Virus record (IMG/VR): IMGVR_UViG_2778261169_000001
Location: 1 to 16,674 of that record
Strand: one strand, 5' to 3'
DNA length: 16,674 nt
Origin: a virus
Taxonomy: Duplodnaviria; Heunggongvirae; Uroviricota; Caudoviricetes
The notes under the pieces are model-generated. The model saw nothing but the letters and a program-made list of their open reading frames with translations. It had not been told where the DNA came from and made no database searches. The position numbers and the translations under genes are program-made. How positions within the stretch are numbered: the stretch's first letter is position 1; each line of letters opens with the position of its first letter. Shown here piece after piece: positions 1,122-7,743 of the stretch.

Positions 1122-1154
1122 GACGGGAAAGGAAAAGGCGGGCAACTGCCCGCC
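1122..1154 (-). terminator. Candidate rho-independent terminator downstream of G (end of the H-G transcription unit)
   Basis: GGCGGGC (1137-1143), loop AACT, GCCCGCC (1148-1154) form a 7-bp GC stem. On the minus strand it is followed by TTTTCCTTTCCC and sits about 10 nt after the G stop codon (1167-1165). Confidence 0.5.
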
Positions 1155-1164
1155 AGATGTCGGA

Positions 1165-1743
1165 TCAGACTGGCAGCGGCGGCCATTCAATATCCGGAGC
1201 ATCCTCCGGCTGGATGCGGCTCAGTAAAACACGGTATTTTTTCCATGCAATGAGGTGCGTTTTTTCATCGTCGGTTGCCATCTCCAGATCAACGGAGTCC
1301 TGTAATGTCGCAACCGCAGTATTGGCCTGTTTAAGAAGCCTGTTTTTGTTGTTTTTCGCAGCCTCTGTCAATGCATTACGTGCAGCATCAGCATCATCAA
1401 CCCATGTTTTACCATCCCATTTCTGCCACGGGTTTTCCGGCACAACCGGTGTTGTTCCTGCCGGATACTGACCCGGCTCGGTTATCTCCCTCTCATGACC
1501 TGTTTCGGTGTCATAGACAACCTCACCCCGGTGGTCTTCAGTGATAGCCCAGCAACCATTTTCAGTGTCATAAACCGGAATAAATCCGTCTCGGGTTTCC
1601 GGGGGCTTTTCACTGGTGCAGCAGGCGGGCAATCCGGTAAATGCCGGTATCAGGGCGTCACCTTTTCCAATAAATTCACAGGTGTCTGCACGAAAGTTAT
1701 ACACAGTGATAGTCCGGCTTTCTCCGGTCATTTTAAACGTCAT
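1165..1743 (-). CDS. G: Tail fibre assembly chaperone (P2 gpG-like)
   Basis: 192-aa ORF immediately downstream of the tail fibre gene; its ATG (1743-1741) overlaps the H stop codon (1745-1743). Position and size fit P2 G; the C-terminal half resembles Tfa-type chaperones. Confidence 0.8.
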   Translation of the reverse strand: MTFKMTGESRTITVYNFRADTCEFIGKGDALIPAFTGLPACCTSEKPPETRDGFIPVYDTENGCWAITEDHRGEVVYDTETGHEREITEPGQYPAGTTPVVPENPWQKWDGKTWVDDADAARNALTEAAKNNKNRLLKQANTAVATLQDSVDLEMATDDEKTHLIAWKKYRVLLSRIQPEDAPDIEWPPLPV

Positions 1744-3428
1744 TATGCGAGTCTCACGATATAGTTAAATGCGATGTTTTTGATGGTGTTTTCTGCATTA
1801 CCCGACGCGGCGATCGTAATGGTGTGACCGTGTGCGCCAATAGCAACGGAGTGCGAGTGTGCGCCAATCCCGACATTATGATTGTGGGCACCAATCGCCA
1901 CGGTATGCGCGTGATTACCTGCAGTTGATGTTGTTTTCGTTCCCGTCGCTATTTCGTTACCGTCGGCGGCCTGTCCCCCGGCCTGATCTCCCCGGTGTAC
2001 GGTAAAAGTGTGCGCATGGTTGCCGGTTGCATTAGTGGTTTTTGTCCCGTAGTCAAAGGTCGTGGTGGTTTTCGTTCCGTGGTCAAAAGCACTGGTGGTT
2101 TTCGTCCCTAAATCGGTGCTCGATGCGCTGGCACCGTGGGCGTGCGATTTAATGCCGTCCTGCTCCTGAGACAAAATAGCGCGCCCACTTGCGGGTTTAC
2201 CTTTGATTGTCCAGCCCCGCATATCAGGAATAACACCCGATGGGTACACCACAGCAAGCAGCGGATACGCGGCTTTATCAAAAGTTTGTCCCTGCATGAC
2301 GGCATAGCCAGCAGGAACACTGTCAGACGGCCACGCAACGGGAGCGCCTACCGGAAAAACATCATCAGGCGTCCACGGTGTCCATGCGCCTGTTGAATAC
2401 TGACTGCGCGAGTAGCTCCGGGAGCTGTTATAAACCCGGTATACCTGAGTCACTCCGGCATTTTTATAAATGACCAGCGTCCCGGCGTTATTTTCAGGGT
2501 AATGTCTGGCGGCTGAGGTATTAGAATTCGCTGGCTGAAAGTAAATACCCGGCGTTTTAAGGGTGTCTAAATCCTCCGTTACCAGCCCAATAGCCTGGTC
2601 GTCGAAAATATCCTGCGAGGTAACACTGGTGTCAGCATTCAGGGAGTGTCCGTTAATTTTGCGCGAGGAAGGAACGCGGCCATCAGCATTATCATTCGCC
2701 GCTTTCACCGCTTTTGGCGTTGCGGCGAGCGTCTCAGACACGCTGTCGATGGCGCTACTGAGCTGAACAATCCCTTTCTGCGCCGTGGTCGCATCCTGAG
2801 CCGAGTATTTACCTTTCGCAAGGTCATACGCCGCCTTAACCGCTTTCGGTGTCGCGGCGAGCGCCTCAGACGTGCTGTCGGTCGCACTGCTTAACTGCGT
2901 GAACCCTTTTTCTTTCAGCGTGGCGTCAGGATGGCGGCGGGACTGCTCATGCTCTGCGAGTTTGTCGTCGACATAATCCTGCGTCGCCATCACCAGCGTG
3001 GTATCGATGGACAACTCGACCGTGTCGATATCACTCACCATGATCACCATACGCAGCGTCTGCGCACGACCTGATCCTTCCGCCAGCTCGGGTTTGTAGC
3101 TTTCGGCCATATTGCCGACCGCAATCAGCGTGCCGGTGTCATCGTAAAGCCCCATTTCACGCAGCCAGAAACCGCCGGTCTCCGGGGGGATCACCAGCTC
3201 CGCCACGACATAATTTTTATGTTTTTTGTCCTGGCTGATTTTGTTCAGGACATGACGCCAGACCTCATTGACGAGTTTTGTCTGGCTGGCGTCCGGTTCG
3301 GGCAGTTTTCCGCCGCCGTCCCCGACGGCCATCACAGCAAAATTGACTTTCTTCCCGTTCGGGAGCGTCGCCGCCGCCAGTTTTTCCGCACCGGCTCGGG
3401 TGATAACGGTTTTATATTTCACTGTCAT
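1743..3428 (-). CDS. H: Tail fibre protein (P2 gpH-like N-terminus, divergent repeat-rich C-terminus)
   Basis: 561-aa ORF. N-terminal ~200 aa ([27 protein letters not shown]..., [25 protein letters not shown]) and the duplicated LSSA[15 protein letters not shown] module match P2 H as I recall it. The C-terminus has a tail-collar-like segment ([38 protein letters not shown]...DMRGW) followed by GTKTT and GAH-x-H-x repeats. Confidence 0.9.
1826..1912 (-). repeat. Three imperfect tandem 27-bp repeats encoding (V/A)-(A/G)-IGAH-x-H-x units at the tail fibre C-terminus
   Basis: Plus-strand units gtgtgcgccaatagcaacggagtgcga / gtgtgcgccaatcccgacattatgatt / gtgggcaccaatcgccacggtatgcgc, translating on the minus strand to AIGAHNHNV / GIGAHSHSV / AIGAHGHTI. 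Coordinates approximate. Confidence 0.7.
2700..2915 (-). repeat. Two ~75-bp direct repeats (about 80% identical by eye, ~135-140 bp apart) inside the tail fibre gene
   Basis: caccgcttttggcgttgcggcgagcgtctcagacacgctgtcgatggcgctactgagctgaacaatccctttctg (from ~2706) versus aaccgctttcggtgtcgcggcgagcgcctcagacgtgctgtcggtcgcactgcttaactgcgtgaaccctttttc (from ~2838). They encode the duplicated [26 protein letters not shown] / [26 protein letters not shown] modules. Confidence 0.8.
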
Positions 3429-3439
3429 TGTGTTCTCAC

Positions 3440-3970
3440 TTATCCGGGGTAAACCGTGATGATGTCGCCGTCCCAGGTCAGGGCTCCGGTGAAGAGATAA
3501 CCCGGTATGTCCTGGATAATATTCAGGCCAATAAGATGGCGGCTGGCTGGCTTTGCATCGGCAATCAGCCTTTCCATTTCGTAATACATTTCCTCGGTGA
3601 TACCGGTCTCCAGCACGCCGATATCAAGGCGAAACGTGCCCGGGGGGTCGTTCGTCTCCCACCACTCCGTCACGTTAATCAGATACCCGAGCGGCTCGAC
3701 CACACGACGCACCGCACCTATCGTCCCTTTATGCGCATGGATAAACCACGTGCTGCGGATAACCTCGCGTTTGGTTTCTTCCGGCCAGCTCTCATCCCAG
3801 CGATCAACCGAAAACGCCCAGGCCAGCCACGGCAGCAGATTCGCGGGGCAGTTGTCAGGGTTCCATAGACGACGCAGCGGGACGGGCGTATTTTCGATAT
3901 CCGCGCAGGCGCGCGCCGCCGCCACCTCAAGCGGCGACGAGCCCACCGGCAGCAGACGGGTATCACTCAT
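3440..3970 (-). CDS. I: Baseplate protein (P2 gpI-like)
   Basis: 176-aa ORF, same length as P2 I, in the conserved V-W-J-I-H order; its start overlaps the J 3' end by 8 nt. Confidence 0.85.
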
Positions 3971-4871
3971 CGTTGCCCCCGATGTTTACGCTGTAAGCAG
4001 TGCAATATGACGCCTGTGTCTCATTGAGTACGATGTCAGCGACCGGCGCGACAAGTTCGACACGCTGCACCCCCTCGACGTAAAGCGCGGCATAGATGGC
4101 AGACTTGCGGATATCGCGCCCGAGCCGGTGCTGCGCGTTGATATAAGCCTGCAGCTTCGCTTTTGCCGCACTGAGCACCGGCTCGCTTTCGGGGCCGGGA
4201 TAAAGATAAAGCGCGGCATCGATGGTGTAGTCGACAATGACCGCCGACTGCACGGTCACGCGGTCAGCAACCGGCCTCACATCCTCATCGTTGAGAGCAT
4301 TACGCACCACGGCGAGCAGTTCCCCGGATGCCGCGCCGTTATTCTCCCGGGACAGTACCGACACGGTCACGCAGGCAGGCTGCGGGCTGATAACAGAAAT
4401 ATCGGCGACCCGCCCGTCAGCACTGCGGCCATGAAACTGATACGCACCGGTCGACCCGGCCACGCTCATTCCCTCAAAAGCCTGTTGAATTCGCAGACGG
4501 TAATCGGTGTCCGATTCCATGACGGCAGGCGTTGGCGGCAGCGTGGTCTCATCAGCAGGCGTAATAACGAGACGCTCAACATTGTAATTTGCGCCGAGGT
4601 TATCAAGGTCATGACCGGCAGCGTAAGCCAGCATCACCGCCCGTGCCGACTCATTCACCCGCTGACGCCAGATAATCTCCCGATAAGCATTTTCCTGCAA
4701 CAGCTTCACAATCGGCTCAGATTCAAGCGTCAGCGTACGCGCTACCGCGTCCTGTTGCTCTTCGGGATAGAGTGAGACGAGCGTCACCTTTCGCTCTGTC
4801 AGGATGGTTTCATAATCCAACTCTTCCACAACATCAGGTGCGGCGAGCTGGCTCAGGTCAACAATAGCCAT
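3963..4871 (-). CDS. J: Baseplate assembly protein J (P2 gpJ-like)
   Basis: 302-aa ORF, same size as P2 J; begins MAIVDLSQL and sits between W and I as in P2. Confidence 0.88.
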   Translation of the reverse strand: MAIVDLSQLAAPDVVEELDYETILTERKVTLVSLYPEEQQDAVARTLTLESEPIVKLLQENAYREIIWRQRVNESARAVMLAYAAGHDLDNLGANYNVERLVITPADETTLPPTPAVMESDTDYRLRIQQAFEGMSVAGSTGAYQFHGRSADGRVADISVISPQPACVTVSVLSRENNGAASGELLAVVRNALNDEDVRPVADRVTVQSAVIVDYTIDAALYLYPGPESEPVLSAAKAKLQAYINAQHRLGRDIRKSAIYAALYVEGVQRVELVAPVADIVLNETQASYCTAYSVNIGGNDE

Positions 4872-6128: not shown

Positions 6129-6707
6129 TTATTTTCCACAAACCATATTATCTATCGCAGCCATATAGGATACAAACAGATCTACATAACCACTTACGTC
6201 AGTGAGACTAATATCATTTGCATTGTCGTTATGATGAATAATGTTATTTCTCTTTACAACCACTGCATTCACAACATCCTTATTCGCATTAAATTCCGCC
6301 GAATTCAAAAGATTAACACCCAAATAAGAAAATGCCTTAATCGTCTTGTAAGGATTACCAGACAGGCTATCCGACACCTCACTTTTCTCAACCTTTAAAT
6401 CAGCATCTATATATTTCAACTCCTTATCTTTAACATCTTTTTTGACTCGCCAAAGCAAAAAATTGTGTGGCAAGCAGGCTGCTTTGAGCCTGCGATTGAT
6501 GGTATCGCAGTGCCATGTTGCAACCTCAGTCAAATACGACTCTAAATAAGTGCAGAGTGTAATAAGATACGATTTAACAAAAAAATTAATGTTCTTATTG
6601 AAGAATTCATTTTCCTCAAGGATAGCCTGTTGCTCCGTCTCCTTAATAATTTCTTTTAAGGATAAAAATAATGAACGATATCCATCATAGTATTCAGTAT
6701 TTTCCAT
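6129..6707 (-). CDS. Hypothetical protein with C-terminal R-x4-H motif (possible HEPN-type RNase), second gene of the island pair
   Basis: 192 aa from ATG 6707-6705 (the track starts 3 nt upstream at a TTG). AAGGAAG lies 6 nt upstream; the start overlaps the upstream gene's 3' end by 14 nt. Motif VVKRNNIIHHND at residues 151-162 is encoded at ~6231-6251. AT-rich codon usage. Confidence 0.6.
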   Translation of the reverse strand: MENTEYYDGYRSLFLSLKEIIKETEQQAILEENEFFNKNINFFVKSYLITLCTYLESYLTEVATWHCDTINRRLKAACLPHNFLLWRVKKDVKDKELKYIDADLKVEKSEVSDSLSGNPYKTIKAFSYLGVNLLNSAEFNANKDVVNAVVVKRNNIIHHNDNANDISLTDVSGYVDLFVSYMAAIDNMVCGK

Positions 6708-7743
6708 CAATAACTTCCTTAAGAAGTGCCACCCAACTAGCCCTACGCTTCATCACCGAACTCTTATTCTGTAGCCCACCTGATAAAGTTTTTTTGAACT
6801 CAGCACTTGAACAAAGAGTAAACCAAGCATTCCGTATTTGTTCGGACTTTTCATTTACAATATCATCATTTAACTTGCCAATTGTAGGCATTAAAATGTC
6901 ATAATGAACTAACCCTTTACGTTTTCTCCTAACTGTAGGGTTTGTAAATACATCTTCACCAAATATTTTTTCACACTTAGATAATGATGTTTTGAATCTC
7001 TCCCTCATAATATTCAGTTCATCATCTTTTAAGTCTGAAAATTTTTCCATATGATCATCCAAGAATTCTTTCAAGGAGCTATCAAAGTAATCAAAAAAGT
7101 TATCTTCATAAAATGCAAAAAAACGCAAAACTTGTTCGTCTGGCTCACGACTATCTCTTTTTACTGTAGTTGTTTCCGCCAAACCAAAATTTTTAATGGC
7201 ATCAATATTACCTAACTCTTCTAATAATTCATCAAACCCTCCCGGATATAACGCATGTCTTATTTCTTGATCAGAAAGTTTAACTGCCCCCTGATTGAGT
7301 CTAGAAAATATCTCTCTTATTAATTTTTTGGGATTTTCTTTTCTTAGAACAATGCATCTTATTGTTGTCGACTCTAACTCTGAACGTAGAGATCCTAATT
7401 CAGAAAACTTTTTCCCTTCAAGCTCTTTAAATGTAGTCATTCCCTCCAAAGCGAACTCGTCATCAAAAAATTTCTGTATTGTGGTTAATCGCTGAACACC
7501 ATCAATTACAATATGATTGCCGCTATCATCTTCTGCAAAGTAACAAGATGGAAGAGGAATACGCATTAAACAAGATTCAATGAATTTTGAAGATCGCAGC
7601 CATCCGTCCTGATCCCATTTGTACTTTCTTTGAAAGTCTGGATTCAGTTTTAGTTTGATGGGATTGGACTTCATCCTAGAACATAAAGTCTCAAATGGAT
7701 AATCTATGGGGAATAAATTCAATGTTTTATCATCGTTAGACAT
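6694..7743 (-). CDS. DUF262 (ParB-like/GmrSD N-terminal domain) protein, no recognisable nuclease domain
   Basis: 349 aa; ATG 7743-7741 with AAGGA 7 nt upstream. DUF262 hallmarks: NPDFQRKYKW (aa 35-44), IVIDGVQRLTT (DGQQR-type motif, aa 78-88, DNA ~7489-7503) and IFSRLNQGAVKLSDQEIRHALY (F-x-R-x-N...G...L...E, aa 145-166). The C-terminal ~170 aa is helical with no HNH/DUF1524-like His-Me motif that I can see. Confidence 0.75.
   Translation of the reverse strand: MSNDDKTLNLFPIDYPFETLCSRMKSNPIKLKLNPDFQRKYKWDQDGWLRSSKFIESCLMRIPLPSCYFAEDDSGNHIVIDGVQRLTTIQKFFDDEFALEGMTTFKELEGKKFSELGSLRSELESTTIRCIVLRKENPKKLIREIFSRLNQGAVKLSDQEIRHALYPGGFDELLEELGNIDAIKNFGLAETTTVKRDSREPDEQVLRFFAFYEDNFFDYFDSSLKEFLDDHMEKFSDLKDDELNIMRERFKTSLSKCEKIFGEDVFTNPTVRRKRKGLVHYDILMPTIGKLNDDIVNEKSEQIRNAWFTLCSSAEFKKTLSGGLQNKSSVMKRRASWVALLKEVIDGKY

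What the first reader, a model, noticed from the sequence alone, without database searches (positions are those of the whole stretch)
1743..2560. Tail fibre C-terminus: tail-collar-like segment followed by His-rich GAH-x-H-x and GTKTT repeats
The N-terminal third is P2 H-like, but the C-terminal receptor-binding part is built from short degenerate repeats: about three 30-nt GTKTT units and three 27-nt (A/G)IGAH-x-H-x units ([27 protein letters not shown]). Paired histidines of this H-x-H type coordinate metal ions in the T4 long-tail-fibre tip and related fibres. This marks a mosaic fibre likely to have a different host range from P2 and a slippage-prone repeat tract.
Basis: partly seen in the sequence, partly recalled or inferred. 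Interest (0 to 1): 0.5.

Follow-up and report, generated by a model that had tools for sequence, protein, structure and literature searches.

The report
T4-type fibre tip on P2-like prophage
The histidine-rich repeats are the needle of a T4 gp37-type receptor-binding tip grafted onto a P2-type tail fibre of an E. coli prophage: a real feature, but an ordinary member of a well-described family of shuffled host-recognition modules.

Summary
The finding lies in a minus-strand gene (1743-3428, 561 aa) of a P2-like E. coli prophage.

The protein has three modules:
- aa 1-253 are 75% identical to P2 gpH.
- aa 254-355 are a separate knob-like module.
- aa 356-561 (window 1746-2363) are a direct homologue of the T4 gp37 receptor-binding tip (PDB 2XGF; E 1e-73, 60% identity). 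This part comprises collar, needle with HxH motifs, variable head and the [11 protein letters not shown] end.

There are six HxH motifs, not three. All 12 histidines are invariant in 60 homologues, and they align with six of T4's seven iron-binding sites.

The next gene (1165-1743) is a Tfa/gp38-type chaperone. Its start codon overlaps the fibre's stop codon (TAATG).

The "slippage-prone" reading fails. The DNA units are only 56-70% identical, and all 36 E. coli genomes that carry this tip have it at the same length.

Across the family, repeat number does vary, from 4 to 8 HxH, but only in a coupled way. Each extra 10-aa unit on the outgoing strand goes with one extra 9-aa HxH unit on the returning strand (171 of 175 tips).

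The family is already published, including in P2-like phages. Interest is low.

The parts
1743..3428 (-). Tail fibre gene (gpH position), 561 aa, made of three modules.
   Evidence: ORF list and translation. Pfam Phage_tail_fib, 2x Phage_fiber_2 and Collar. phrog_295 tail fiber, E 5e-224. RefSeq annotates it as WP_029392299.1 'phage tail protein'.
2670..3428 (-). Module 1, aa 1-253. P2 gpH-type N-terminal part that attaches to the baseplate, plus two Phage_fiber_2 shaft repeats.
   Evidence: 75% identity to P2 H aa 1-253, E 8e-128, with no similarity beyond. Pfam PF12571 at aa 1-151 and PF03406 x2. An 86-nt direct repeat at 2692-2777 / 2824-2909, 77% identical, underlies the two fibre repeats.
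2364..2669 (-). Module 2, aa 254-355. Knob-like shaft domain, unrelated to P2 H and to T4 gp37.
   Evidence: No Pfam hit. Weak match to the R2 pyocin fibre knob 6CT8/6CL6, E 0.003. 64-68% identical to fibres of the P2-like phages Chuche and STYP1, and 39-66% over part of its length to Aeromonas and Cronobacter phage fibres, some annotated as long-tail-fibre distal subunits.
1746..2363 (-). Module 3, aa 356-561. T4 gp37-type receptor-binding tip: collar, needle and head.
   Evidence: PDB phmmer hit to 2XGF, E 1.3e-73. BLASTP 60% to T4 gp37 813-1026, 73% to P1-like phage JL22 Stf 799-1006, and 70% to the Peduoviridae ESSI2_ev239 fibre 320-524. All three alignments start at query aa 353-358.
2205..2348 (-). 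Tail collar domain, aa 361-408.
   Evidence: Pfam PF07484, E 2.1e-9. Aligned with T4 gp37 residues ~817-863.
2136..2144 (-). HxH site 1 (H429/H431), at the collar-proximal end of the outgoing needle strand. Equivalent to T4 H883/H885.
   Evidence: Alignments. Invariant in alignment A1.
2025..2114 (-). Three 10-aa units, D-x-GTKTT-x-x-(F/T), at aa 439-468. They form the outgoing needle strand opposite the returning HxH units.
   Evidence: TRF period 30. The repeat finder family D2. Unit table. Conserved in homologues.
2010..2018 (-). HxH site 2 (H471/H473), next to the head. Equivalent to T4 H929/H931.
   Evidence: Alanine substitution of T4 H929 or H931 abolishes plaque formation, and H929 is described as an iron ligand (PMC6957217).
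1914..2009 (-). Head, the presumed receptor-contacting region, aa 474-505. Hypervariable among homologues. Contains the fourth GTKTT.
   Evidence: The consensus line is nearly empty here while the flanks are conserved. The head spacing ranges from 33 to 70 aa across the family. T4 residues important for function (N937, G940, S947, Y949) align with R479, Q482, D489 and N491.
1812..1919 (-). Four 9-aa units, G-x-H-x-H-x-(V/I)-x-I, at aa 504-539. They carry HxH sites 3-6 (H506/508, H515/517, H524/526, H533/535) on the returning needle strand. The first two residues overlap the head part.
   Evidence: Unit table. Aligned to T4 H966/968, H980/982, H989/991 and H998/1000. Invariant in A1.
1746..1811 (-). 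Conserved C-terminal segment, aa 540-561 ([22 protein letters not shown]).
   Evidence: Near-identical in T4, JL22, ESSI2 and the aligned homologues.
1165..1743 (-). Tail fibre assembly chaperone (Tfa / T4 gp38 type), 192 aa. Its ATG shares one base with the fibre's TAA stop (TAATG).
   Evidence: Pfam Caudo_TAP, E 4.6e-36. phrog_105. 25% identity to T4 gp38 over 177 aa (E 2.8e-15), 47% to JL22 Tfa, 63% to the ESSI2 protein. Only the last 65 aa resemble P2 G. The overlap is read from the sequence and from the ORF ends.
1137..1154 (-). Terminator-like hairpin (7 G-C pairs, then TTTTCCTTTC), 11 nt after the chaperone's stop codon.

Best explanation
The region encodes the distal, host-recognising end of the tail fibre of a P2-like E. 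coli prophage. That end is a T4 gp37-type 'collar-needle-head' tip joined to a P2 gpH-type attachment and shaft.

By homology with the crystallised T4 tip, three chains are expected to trimerise as follows:
- Each chain leaves the collar (aa 361-408) and runs out along the needle. This outgoing strand carries HxH site 1, three 10-aa GTKTT units and HxH site 2.
- The chain then forms the variable head (aa 474-505), which would contact the receptor.
- It runs back along the needle as four 9-aa G-x-H-x-H units and ends in the conserved [11 protein letters not shown] segment near the collar.
- Each HxH from the three chains would give six histidines that coordinate one metal ion (Fe2+ in T4) on the fibre axis. 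That makes six ions here, against seven in T4.

On this reading the 'repeats' are stacked structural layers of the needle. They are not a mutable tract.

The downstream gene encodes a Tfa/gp38-type chaperone. It is probably translationally coupled to the fibre gene (TAATG overlap) and is needed to fold the trimer. The tip and chaperone travel together as a cassette among T-even, lambdoid, P1-like and P2-like phages.

Shown here: the homology, the conservation, the module boundaries and the gene order.
Inferred: trimer formation, metal binding, dependence on the chaperone, and that the head sets receptor specificity. The receptor itself is unknown.
For: Homology and anatomy:
- PDB sequence search: aa 357-561 against 2XGF (T4 gp37 tip), E 1.3e-73. 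BLASTP gives 60% identity over 215 columns.
- Pfam Collar at aa 361-408.
- HxH positions are 429, 471 / 506, 515, 524, 533 here and 883, 915, 929 / 966, 980, 989, 998 in T4. All 12 histidines are invariant in a 60-sequence alignment.
- The head is hypervariable while both needle strands are conserved.

Layer rule:
- In 171 of 175 unique tips, a first HxH spacing of 32+10k goes with 2+k terminal 9-aa spacings.

Chaperone:
- The downstream gene is Caudo_TAP and is homologous to T4 gp38 (E 2.8e-15).
- The one-base stop/start overlap inferred from the gene coordinates is also present in JL22 (stf ends and tfa starts at L003 4115) and ESSI2_ev239 (L004 3615).

Spread of the cassette:
- tblastn finds the tip in 451 phage records, including T-even gp37, lambdoid Stf and P2-like phages such as SEN1.
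- 1,635 representative proteins match at E <= 1e-3.

Literature:
- Seven iron atoms lie along the T4 needle. Alanine substitution of H929 or H931 abolishes plaque formation (PMC6957217).
- gp37 folding requires gp38 (PMC3004832).
- A T4/lambda RBP family with adjacent gp38-like chaperones has been described, including the Citrobacter prophage PhiNP and Salmonella phage SEN5 (PMC9659904).
- Ur-lambda Stf and T4 gp37 both bind OmpC (PMC12617516).

Fold search: Foldseek of the (poor) model against the PDB returns only 2XGF, E 1.5e-10.
Against: - No direct structural support was obtained. The AlphaFold2 monomer model is poor (mean pLDDT 57, pTM 0.21). Its superposition on 2XGF has TM 0.32 and rmsd 15.7 A, so that hit is driven mainly by sequence.
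- Trimerisation and metal content cannot be tested with these tools.
- One of the seven T4 iron sites (H915/H917) is absent here.
- The head residues shown to matter in T4 are mostly different here. The T4 and lambda receptor, OmpC, therefore cannot be transferred to this fibre.
- Family members with known receptors use different ones: LPS Glc-II, OmpC, OmpF (PMC9659904).
- No gp57A-like general chaperone was looked for.
Confidence: 0.9

Rival explanations
1. The repeats form a slippage-prone (contingency-type) tract. The number of 27- or 30-nt units would change frequently and so vary the fibre and its host range.
For: Tandem units do exist. The number of units differs between distant family members, from 4 to 8 HxH.
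Against: - The DNA units are only 56-70% identical. In-register exact runs are 3-9 nt for the 27-nt units and at most 13 nt for the 30-nt units.
- All 36 complete E. coli genomes with a tip at least 99% identical carry it over the full 618 bases of the query.
- Unit number changes only in matched pairs on the two needle strands, about 190 nt apart. Simple local slippage would not produce that.
- A single-strand change would be expected to put the antiparallel needle out of register (inference).
Confidence: 0.03
2. The tip is a T4 gp12-type short-tail-fibre end: a collar plus a zinc-binding receptor domain that binds the LPS core. On this reading it is not a gp37-type needle.
For: The collar domain is shared with gp12-type fibres. 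A solved 'Short tail fiber' (9CUY) matches aa 357-464 with E 8e-6. Similarity between T4 gp37 814-860 and the gp12 collar is documented (PMC3004832).
Against: The short-tail-fibre match covers only the collar and a little beyond, and it is 68 orders of magnitude weaker than the gp37 match. The gp37 match runs to the last residue and includes every HxH unit.
Confidence: 0.02
3. The tip is a conserved mechanical or structural fibre end. Host specificity would then be set elsewhere, for example by the Tfa protein staying bound to the tip, or by another fibre.
For: - Tfa-type proteins of Ur-lambda and Mu are reported in mature virions (PMC9608196).
- The BASEL study suggests a more mechanical role for gp37-like tips that are highly conserved within one genus (PMC11990801).
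- The N-terminal ~125 aa of the chaperone vary with the tip rather than with the P2 backbone.
Against: - The head between the two needle strands is the most variable part of the family, while the needle is conserved. That is the pattern expected for a receptor-contacting surface.
- In T4 the tip residues were mapped as receptor-interacting (PMC6957217).
- No second fibre gene lies between baseplate gene I and the sheath gene in this window.
Confidence: 0.08

Closest known systems
Bacteriophage T4 gp37 long-tail-fibre receptor-binding tip (PDB 2XGF, residues 785-1026) with its chaperone gp38
   Same: - Same order of parts: collar, outgoing strand with HxH and GTK units, head, returning strand with 9-aa HxH units, and an identical [11 protein letters not shown] end.
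- 60% identity over the whole tip.
- A homologous chaperone gene lies immediately downstream.
   Different: - Six HxH sites instead of seven. The T4 H915/H917 site and the matching 5-aa insert (SSAGD) on the returning strand are absent, and a third GTKTT unit is present.
- The head sequence is different.
- The tip is carried on a 561-aa P2-type fibre rather than the 1026-aa T4 distal half-fibre.
- The chaperone is only 25% identical.
Side tail fibre Stf plus Tfa of Ur-lambda and lambdoid or P1-like phages (e.g. Escherichia phage JL22 stf/tfa)
   Same: - JL22 Stf has the same 6-HxH layout (spacings 42; 34; 9, 9, 9), three GTKTT units and 73% identity.
- Its Tfa is 47% identical to the chaperone here, with the same stop/start overlap by coordinates.
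   Different: - The N-terminal attachment and shaft are unrelated apart from the Phage_fiber_2 repeats.
- The head sequence differs.
- Lambda Stf is an accessory fibre on a siphovirus. Here the fibre occupies the single gpH position of a P2-type myovirus.
The 'T4- and lambda-based receptor binding protein family' of Magaziner & Salmond 2022 (PMC9659904). Members include Citrobacter rodentium prophage PhiNP ORF6/ORF5 and Salmonella phage SEN5. A related case is the fibre of Burkholderia phage E094, gp23/gp24 (PMC8174754).
   Same: A temperate-phage tail fibre ending in a ~215-aa gp37-like tip, followed by a gp38/Tfa-like assembly gene. Divergence is centred on the receptor-specificity region.
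   Different: This allele has not been characterised. Its closest listed relatives are 79% identical in the tip. Its receptor is unknown, whereas PhiNP uses LPS Glc-II.
Bacteriophage P2 gpH / gpG
   Same: - The first 253 aa are 75% identical.
- Same gene order J-I-H-G-FI.
- The C-terminal 65 aa of the chaperone are 38% identical.
   Different: Everything distal to aa 253 of the fibre, and the first ~125 aa of the chaperone, are unrelated to P2. P2 binds LPS (PMC9594776).

Membership tests
T4 gp37-type receptor-binding tip (2XGF; T4/lambda RBP family) | Significant sequence homology over the whole tip, from the collar to the C-terminus. | tested here: met
   phmmer against PDB: aa 357-561 against 2XGF residues 28-242 of the chain, E 1.3e-73. 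BLASTP 130/215 identical.
T4 gp37-type receptor-binding tip (2XGF; T4/lambda RBP family) | A phage tail collar domain immediately before the needle. | tested here: met
   Pfam PF07484 at aa 361-408, 37.7 bits against a cut-off of 24.
T4 gp37-type receptor-binding tip (2XGF; T4/lambda RBP family) | HxH motifs on both the outgoing and the returning needle strands, at the positions of the T4 iron ligands. | tested here: met
   Six of the seven T4 sites are conserved in register. The H915/H917 site is absent. All 12 histidines are invariant in 60 homologues.
T4 gp37-type receptor-binding tip (2XGF; T4/lambda RBP family) | A variable head between the two needle strands, and a conserved C-terminal segment. 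| tested here: met
T4 gp37-type receptor-binding tip (2XGF; T4/lambda RBP family) | An adjacent gp38/Tfa-type assembly chaperone gene. | tested here: met
   Caudo_TAP, E 4.6e-36. Homology to T4 gp38, E 2.8e-15.
T4 gp37-type receptor-binding tip (2XGF; T4/lambda RBP family) | A homotrimeric six-stranded needle with octahedrally coordinated Fe2+ on the axis. | not testable with these tools
   Only a monomer could be predicted, and the model is poor: pLDDT 57, pTM 0.21. Foldseek finds 2XGF, but with TM 0.32. Multimer prediction or experiment is needed.
T4 gp37-type receptor-binding tip (2XGF; T4/lambda RBP family) | Binds a defined outer-membrane receptor (OmpC, OmpF or LPS) through the head. | not testable with these tools
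   The head residues differ from T4. Receptors differ among characterised members.
P2 gpH tail fibre | The gpH N-terminal domain, in the J-I-H-G gene order. | tested here: met
   75% identity over aa 1-253. Pfam PF12571. Tail_P2_I and Baseplate_J lie upstream.
P2 gpH tail fibre | The P2 gpH distal (receptor-binding) half, and a P2 gpG-type chaperone over its full length. | tested here: not met
   No similarity to P2 H after aa 253. Only the last 65 aa of the chaperone resemble P2 G.
Slippage or contingency repeat tract | Near-identical tandem DNA units. | tested here: not met
   Units are 56-70% identical, with a longest in-register exact run of 13 nt.
Slippage or contingency repeat tract | Length polymorphism among otherwise near-identical copies. 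| tested here: not met
   All 36 genomes with at least 99% identity match the full 618 bases of the query.
T4 gp12-type short tail fibre tip | Homology beyond the collar into the receptor-binding domain. | tested here: not met
   The 9CUY short tail fibre matches only aa 357-464, E 8e-6.
T2/S16-type fibre capped by a gp38 adhesin | The downstream gene encodes a glycine-rich adhesin that stays on the fibre tip, rather than a chaperone. | tested here: not met
   The downstream protein is Caudo_TAP and aligns with the T4 gp38 chaperone. The T4 record notes that the gp38 adhesin of the T2 subfamily is unrelated.

The most novel reading that the evidence does not exclude
The needle of this family may be built from discrete 'layers', and its length may evolve only by adding or removing a whole layer.

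- One layer is a 10-aa GTKTT-type unit on the outgoing strand together with a 9-aa GxHxH unit (one metal site) on the returning strand. The two changes lie about 190 nt apart.
- This gives classes with 4 to 8 metal sites. The window's fibre belongs to the 6-site class.
- The T4-type variants add a further distal '14/14' layer.

If this rule is real and undescribed, it gives a simple grammar for engineering fibre reach, for example through O-antigen or capsule. It also raises the question of how the paired changes arise.
Probability: 0.3. Interest if true: 0.35.

Novelty: new member of a known kind. Interest (0 to 1): 0.15.

Why it matters
It matters only modestly.

- It identifies the host-recognition module of a P2-like prophage found in 36 of 5,426 complete E. 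coli genomes. The matching strains listed come mainly from humans, including several named NDM3 to NDM6. RefSeq labels the protein only 'phage tail protein'.
- The tip and chaperone form a known portable cassette that is used in host-range engineering. This natural P2-gpH::gp37-tip fusion gives workable junction points, at about aa 253 and about aa 356, for engineered P2-based particles.
- The coupled-layer rule is a small structural-evolution observation. It could guide the design of shorter or longer needles.
- Nothing here challenges current understanding.

Tried and rejected
1. megablast of 1743-2560 against the phage collection found no match. Protein-level tblastn was needed.

2. AlphaFold2 of the 206-aa tip with a 60-sequence alignment gave a poor monomer model (pLDDT 57, pTM 0.21). 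This is expected for an intertwined trimer. The model was used only for one Foldseek run, which returned 2XGF alone with TM 0.32. I draw no structural conclusions from it.

3. The Bartual et al. 2010 structure paper is not held, and neither is the Tfa paper PMC7811200. The domain description of 2XGF therefore rests on secondary citations and on my own recollection.

4. The slippage hypothesis was tested at DNA level and in the E. coli genome collection, and rejected.

5. Mu/P1 S-type tip: Mu S matches only the Phage_fiber_2 repeat at aa 199-256. It is not the tip.

6. gp12-type tip: rejected, because the match covers the collar only.

7. The search for homologous proteins did not return the identical 561-aa protein, although it is in RefSeq. 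The best hit was 79% identical. No reason was found, and it does not affect the conclusions.

8. GC profile: the tip has 53-55% GC, against 55-58% in the P2-like N-terminal part and about 60% in gene J. The difference is too small to use as evidence of transfer.
Full report
**Where the finding lies.** The window is the late region of a P2-like prophage. On the minus strand the genes run Baseplate_J (3963-4871), Tail_P2_I (3440-3970), a 561-aa fibre gene (1743-3428), a 192-aa Caudo_TAP gene (1165-1743) and then the sheath gene. The fibre and chaperone stretch (1165-3428) is 100% identical to the chromosome of E. coli WCHEC005784 and other complete E. coli genomes; 30 records match at 99% or more. 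There it is annotated 'phage tail protein | tail fiber assembly protein', inside a P2-type prophage next to yegQ. The closest sequenced phage over the whole window is Enterobacter phage ENT4 (84.7%), followed by the PSP3/SEN1 group.

- The translation contains GTKTT four times (aa 441, 451, 461, 496) and H-x-H six times (aa 429, 471, 506, 515, 524, 533).
- The three 10-aa units are [20 protein letters not shown] and [10 protein letters not shown].
- At DNA level the 30-nt period is detected (TRF, 2035-2108, 81% matches; three copies). The 27-nt period is too degenerate to be detected.
- Shuffling the 206-aa tip gives a mean of 0.88 HxH. Only 6 of 100,000 shuffles reach six, and only 209 of 100,000 contain even one GTKTT.
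- Pfam confirms a tail collar domain at aa 361-408.

**What it is.** A sequence search of the PDB settles the question. Residues 357-561 match the crystallised receptor-binding tip of T4 gp37 (2XGF) with E 1.3e-73, and the alignment runs to the last residue. BLASTP gives 60% identity to gp37 813-1026. The same segment is 73% identical to the end of the Stf side fibre of P1-like phage JL22 and 70% identical to the fibre of the Peduoviridae phage ESSI2_ev239. In all three comparisons the similarity begins abruptly at query aa 353-358.

Upstream, aa 1-253 are 75% identical to P2 gpH, and nothing beyond resembles P2. The 100 residues in between have no Pfam family and a weak resemblance to the knob of R2 pyocin fibres (E 0.003). 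They recur at 64-68% identity in the P2-like phages Chuche and STYP1, and more distantly in fibres of Aeromonas and Cronobacter phages.

The fibre is therefore a three-module mosaic, and the repeat-bearing part is module 3, window 1746-2363.

**Anatomy of the tip.** T4 has seven HxH motifs, at 883, 915 and 929 on the outgoing strand and at 966, 980, 989 and 998 on the returning strand. The window protein has six, at 429 and 471 outgoing and at 506, 515, 524 and 533 returning. The literature describes seven iron atoms along the T4 needle. H929 from the three chains coordinates one of them, and alanine substitution of H929 or H931 abolishes plaque formation (PMC6957217). HxH motifs coordinate Fe2+ upon trimerisation (PMC8174754).

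Compared with T4, the window protein differs in two matched places. It lacks the H915/H917 site, which is replaced by a third GTKTT unit, and it lacks the 5-aa insert on the returning strand. In a 60-sequence alignment all 12 histidines are invariant.

The segment between HxH 2 and HxH 3 (aa 474-505) corresponds to the T4 head. It has almost no consensus among 91 unique tips, whereas both needle strands and the C-terminal [11 protein letters not shown] are conserved. T4 residues whose substitution abolishes infectivity (N937, G940, S947, Y949) align with R479, Q482, D489 and N491. The structural glycines G938, G942 and G943 are kept. The receptor therefore cannot be inferred from T4.

**The repeats are structural layers.** I compared HxH spacings in 175 unique complete tips, taken from the 120 closest proteins and from 150 representatives of a family with 1,635 members at E <= 1e-3. 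The distance from the first HxH to the next is 22, 32, 42 or 52 residues. It goes with 1, 2, 3 or 4 terminal 9-residue spacings respectively in 171 of 175 tips. The four exceptions are trivial: one His-to-Tyr change, one lost HxH and two one-residue deletions.

So each extra 10-aa unit on the outgoing strand is matched by one extra 9-aa HxH unit on the returning strand. This is what an antiparallel needle requires. T4-type tips add a further distal pair of 14-residue spacings. Classes with 4 to 8 HxH exist, and the window protein is in the 6-HxH class (42; 35; 9, 9, 9). That class is the most common in this sample, which is biased towards relatives of the query. The geometric reading (7-9 residues between successive metal sites) is my inference from the spacings, not a measured structure.

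**Slippage.**
- The 27-nt units are 56-70% identical, with in-register exact runs of 3-9 nt. The 30-nt units are 63-70% identical, with a longest run of 13 nt.
- In 5,426 complete E. coli genomes, 36 carry a tip at least 99% identical, and each matches the full 618 bases of the query. The next class is below 90% identity.
- Repeat number changes only across deep divergence, and only as paired changes about 190 nt apart.

**The chaperone.**
- The downstream 192-aa protein is Caudo_TAP (E 4.6e-36). It is 25% identical to T4 gp38 over 177 residues (E 2.8e-15), 47% to JL22 Tfa and 63% to the ESSI2 protein. It resembles P2 gpG only in its last 65 residues.
- Its ATG shares one base with the fibre's TAA (TAATG). 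By their annotated coordinates, the same one-base overlap occurs in JL22 and ESSI2_ev239.
- A strong terminator-like hairpin follows at 1154-1137.
- gp38 is required for trimerisation of gp37 (PMC3004832). Tfa-type proteins of Ur-lambda and Mu are reported in mature virions, whereas T4 gp38 is not incorporated (PMC9608196).

**Structure prediction.** Only a monomer could be predicted, and the model is poor (pLDDT 57, pTM 0.21). Foldseek against the PDB returns 2XGF as the sole hit (E 1.5e-10), but with TM 0.32 and rmsd 15.7 A. I treat this as uninformative. The assignment rests on sequence homology.

**Comparison with what is known.**
- The module is widespread. It occurs in 451 phage records, including T-even gp37, lambdoid and P1-like Stf, and P2-like phages such as SEN1 and ESSI2_ev239.
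- It has been described as a 'T4- and lambda-based RBP family' of more than 200 members with adjacent gp38-like chaperones. Members include the Citrobacter prophage PhiNP and Salmonella phage SEN5, and the family uses different receptors: LPS Glc-II, OmpC, OmpF (PMC9659904).
- Ur-lambda Stf and T4 gp37 both fit OmpC (PMC12617516).
- A Burkholderia phage fibre with seven HxH and a downstream Tfa-like protein is also described (PMC8174754).
- Truncated gp37-like tips were noted in the BASEL collection (PMC11990801).

The window's fibre meets every sequence-level criterion of this family. It fails the criteria for a full P2 gpH, a gp12-type tip, a gp38-adhesin system and a slippage tract.

**Verdict.**
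It is wrong about slippage.
- The feature is an uncharacterised allele of a well-known, horizontally shuffled tip-plus-chaperone cassette.
- The coupled-layer rule is the only mildly new point. I could not establish whether it has been stated before.
- Interest is low (0.15).

Noticed in passing
window 6129-7743, minus strand: Two overlapping cargo genes that are not P2 genes lie between the P2-type virion-morphogenesis and baseplate V genes. One is a 349-aa DUF262/GmrSD_N protein that matches PADLOC NsnA (E 6.6e-80) and PD-T4-2_A (E 9.5e-43). The other is a 193-aa HEPN_RiboL-PSP protein (Pfam E 1e-17, no PADLOC hit). They are probably a two-gene anti-phage defence system in a P2 hotspot.
   Followed up: partly
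L001 31435-34106 (E. coli WCHEC005784, just beyond the window's portal gene): A DUF3696 protein and a hypothetical protein follow the portal gene at the prophage end. They may be a second cargo or defence locus.
   Followed up: no
L001 7809-9178: In that genome an IS150 (IS3-family) element sits at the prophage edge, next to the small DNA-binding regulator gene that lies beside the late control D gene.
   Followed up: no
window 2364-2669, minus strand (aa 254-355): A third mosaic module lies between the P2 H-like part and the T4-like tip. It is knob-like and weakly similar to R2 pyocin fibre knobs (E 0.003). It is shared at 64-68% identity with the P2-like phages Chuche and STYP1, and at 39-66% over part of its length with Aeromonas and Cronobacter phage fibres.
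   Followed up: partly
window 2692-2777 and 2824-2909: An 86-nt direct repeat, 77% identical and spaced 132 nt apart, encodes the two Pfam Phage_fiber_2 repeats of the shaft. Solved Mu S fibres match this stretch (aa 199-256).
   Followed up: yes
window 1741-1745 and 1137-1154: The fibre's stop codon and the chaperone's start codon overlap (TAATG). By annotated coordinates the same overlap occurs in JL22 and ESSI2_ev239. A hairpin with 7 G-C pairs and a T-rich tail follows the chaperone gene.
   Followed up: yes
family-wide (proteins P0001-P0267); window aa 429-535: There is a coupled indel rule in gp37-type needles. A first HxH spacing of 32+10k residues goes with 2+k terminal 9-residue HxH spacings in 171 of 175 unique tips. 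Classes with 4 to 8 HxH exist.
   Followed up: yes
window 1986-1994, minus strand (aa 479-481): The head contains the tripeptide RGD (VHRGDQ). The closest homologues have YQGD or YRGD at this position. It is variably present and probably there by chance.
   Followed up: no
(database behaviour): The large protein search did not return the identical 561-aa protein, although it is present in about 30 RefSeq E. coli genomes. The best hit was 79% identical, and all listed hits were 360 aa or shorter.
   Followed up: no
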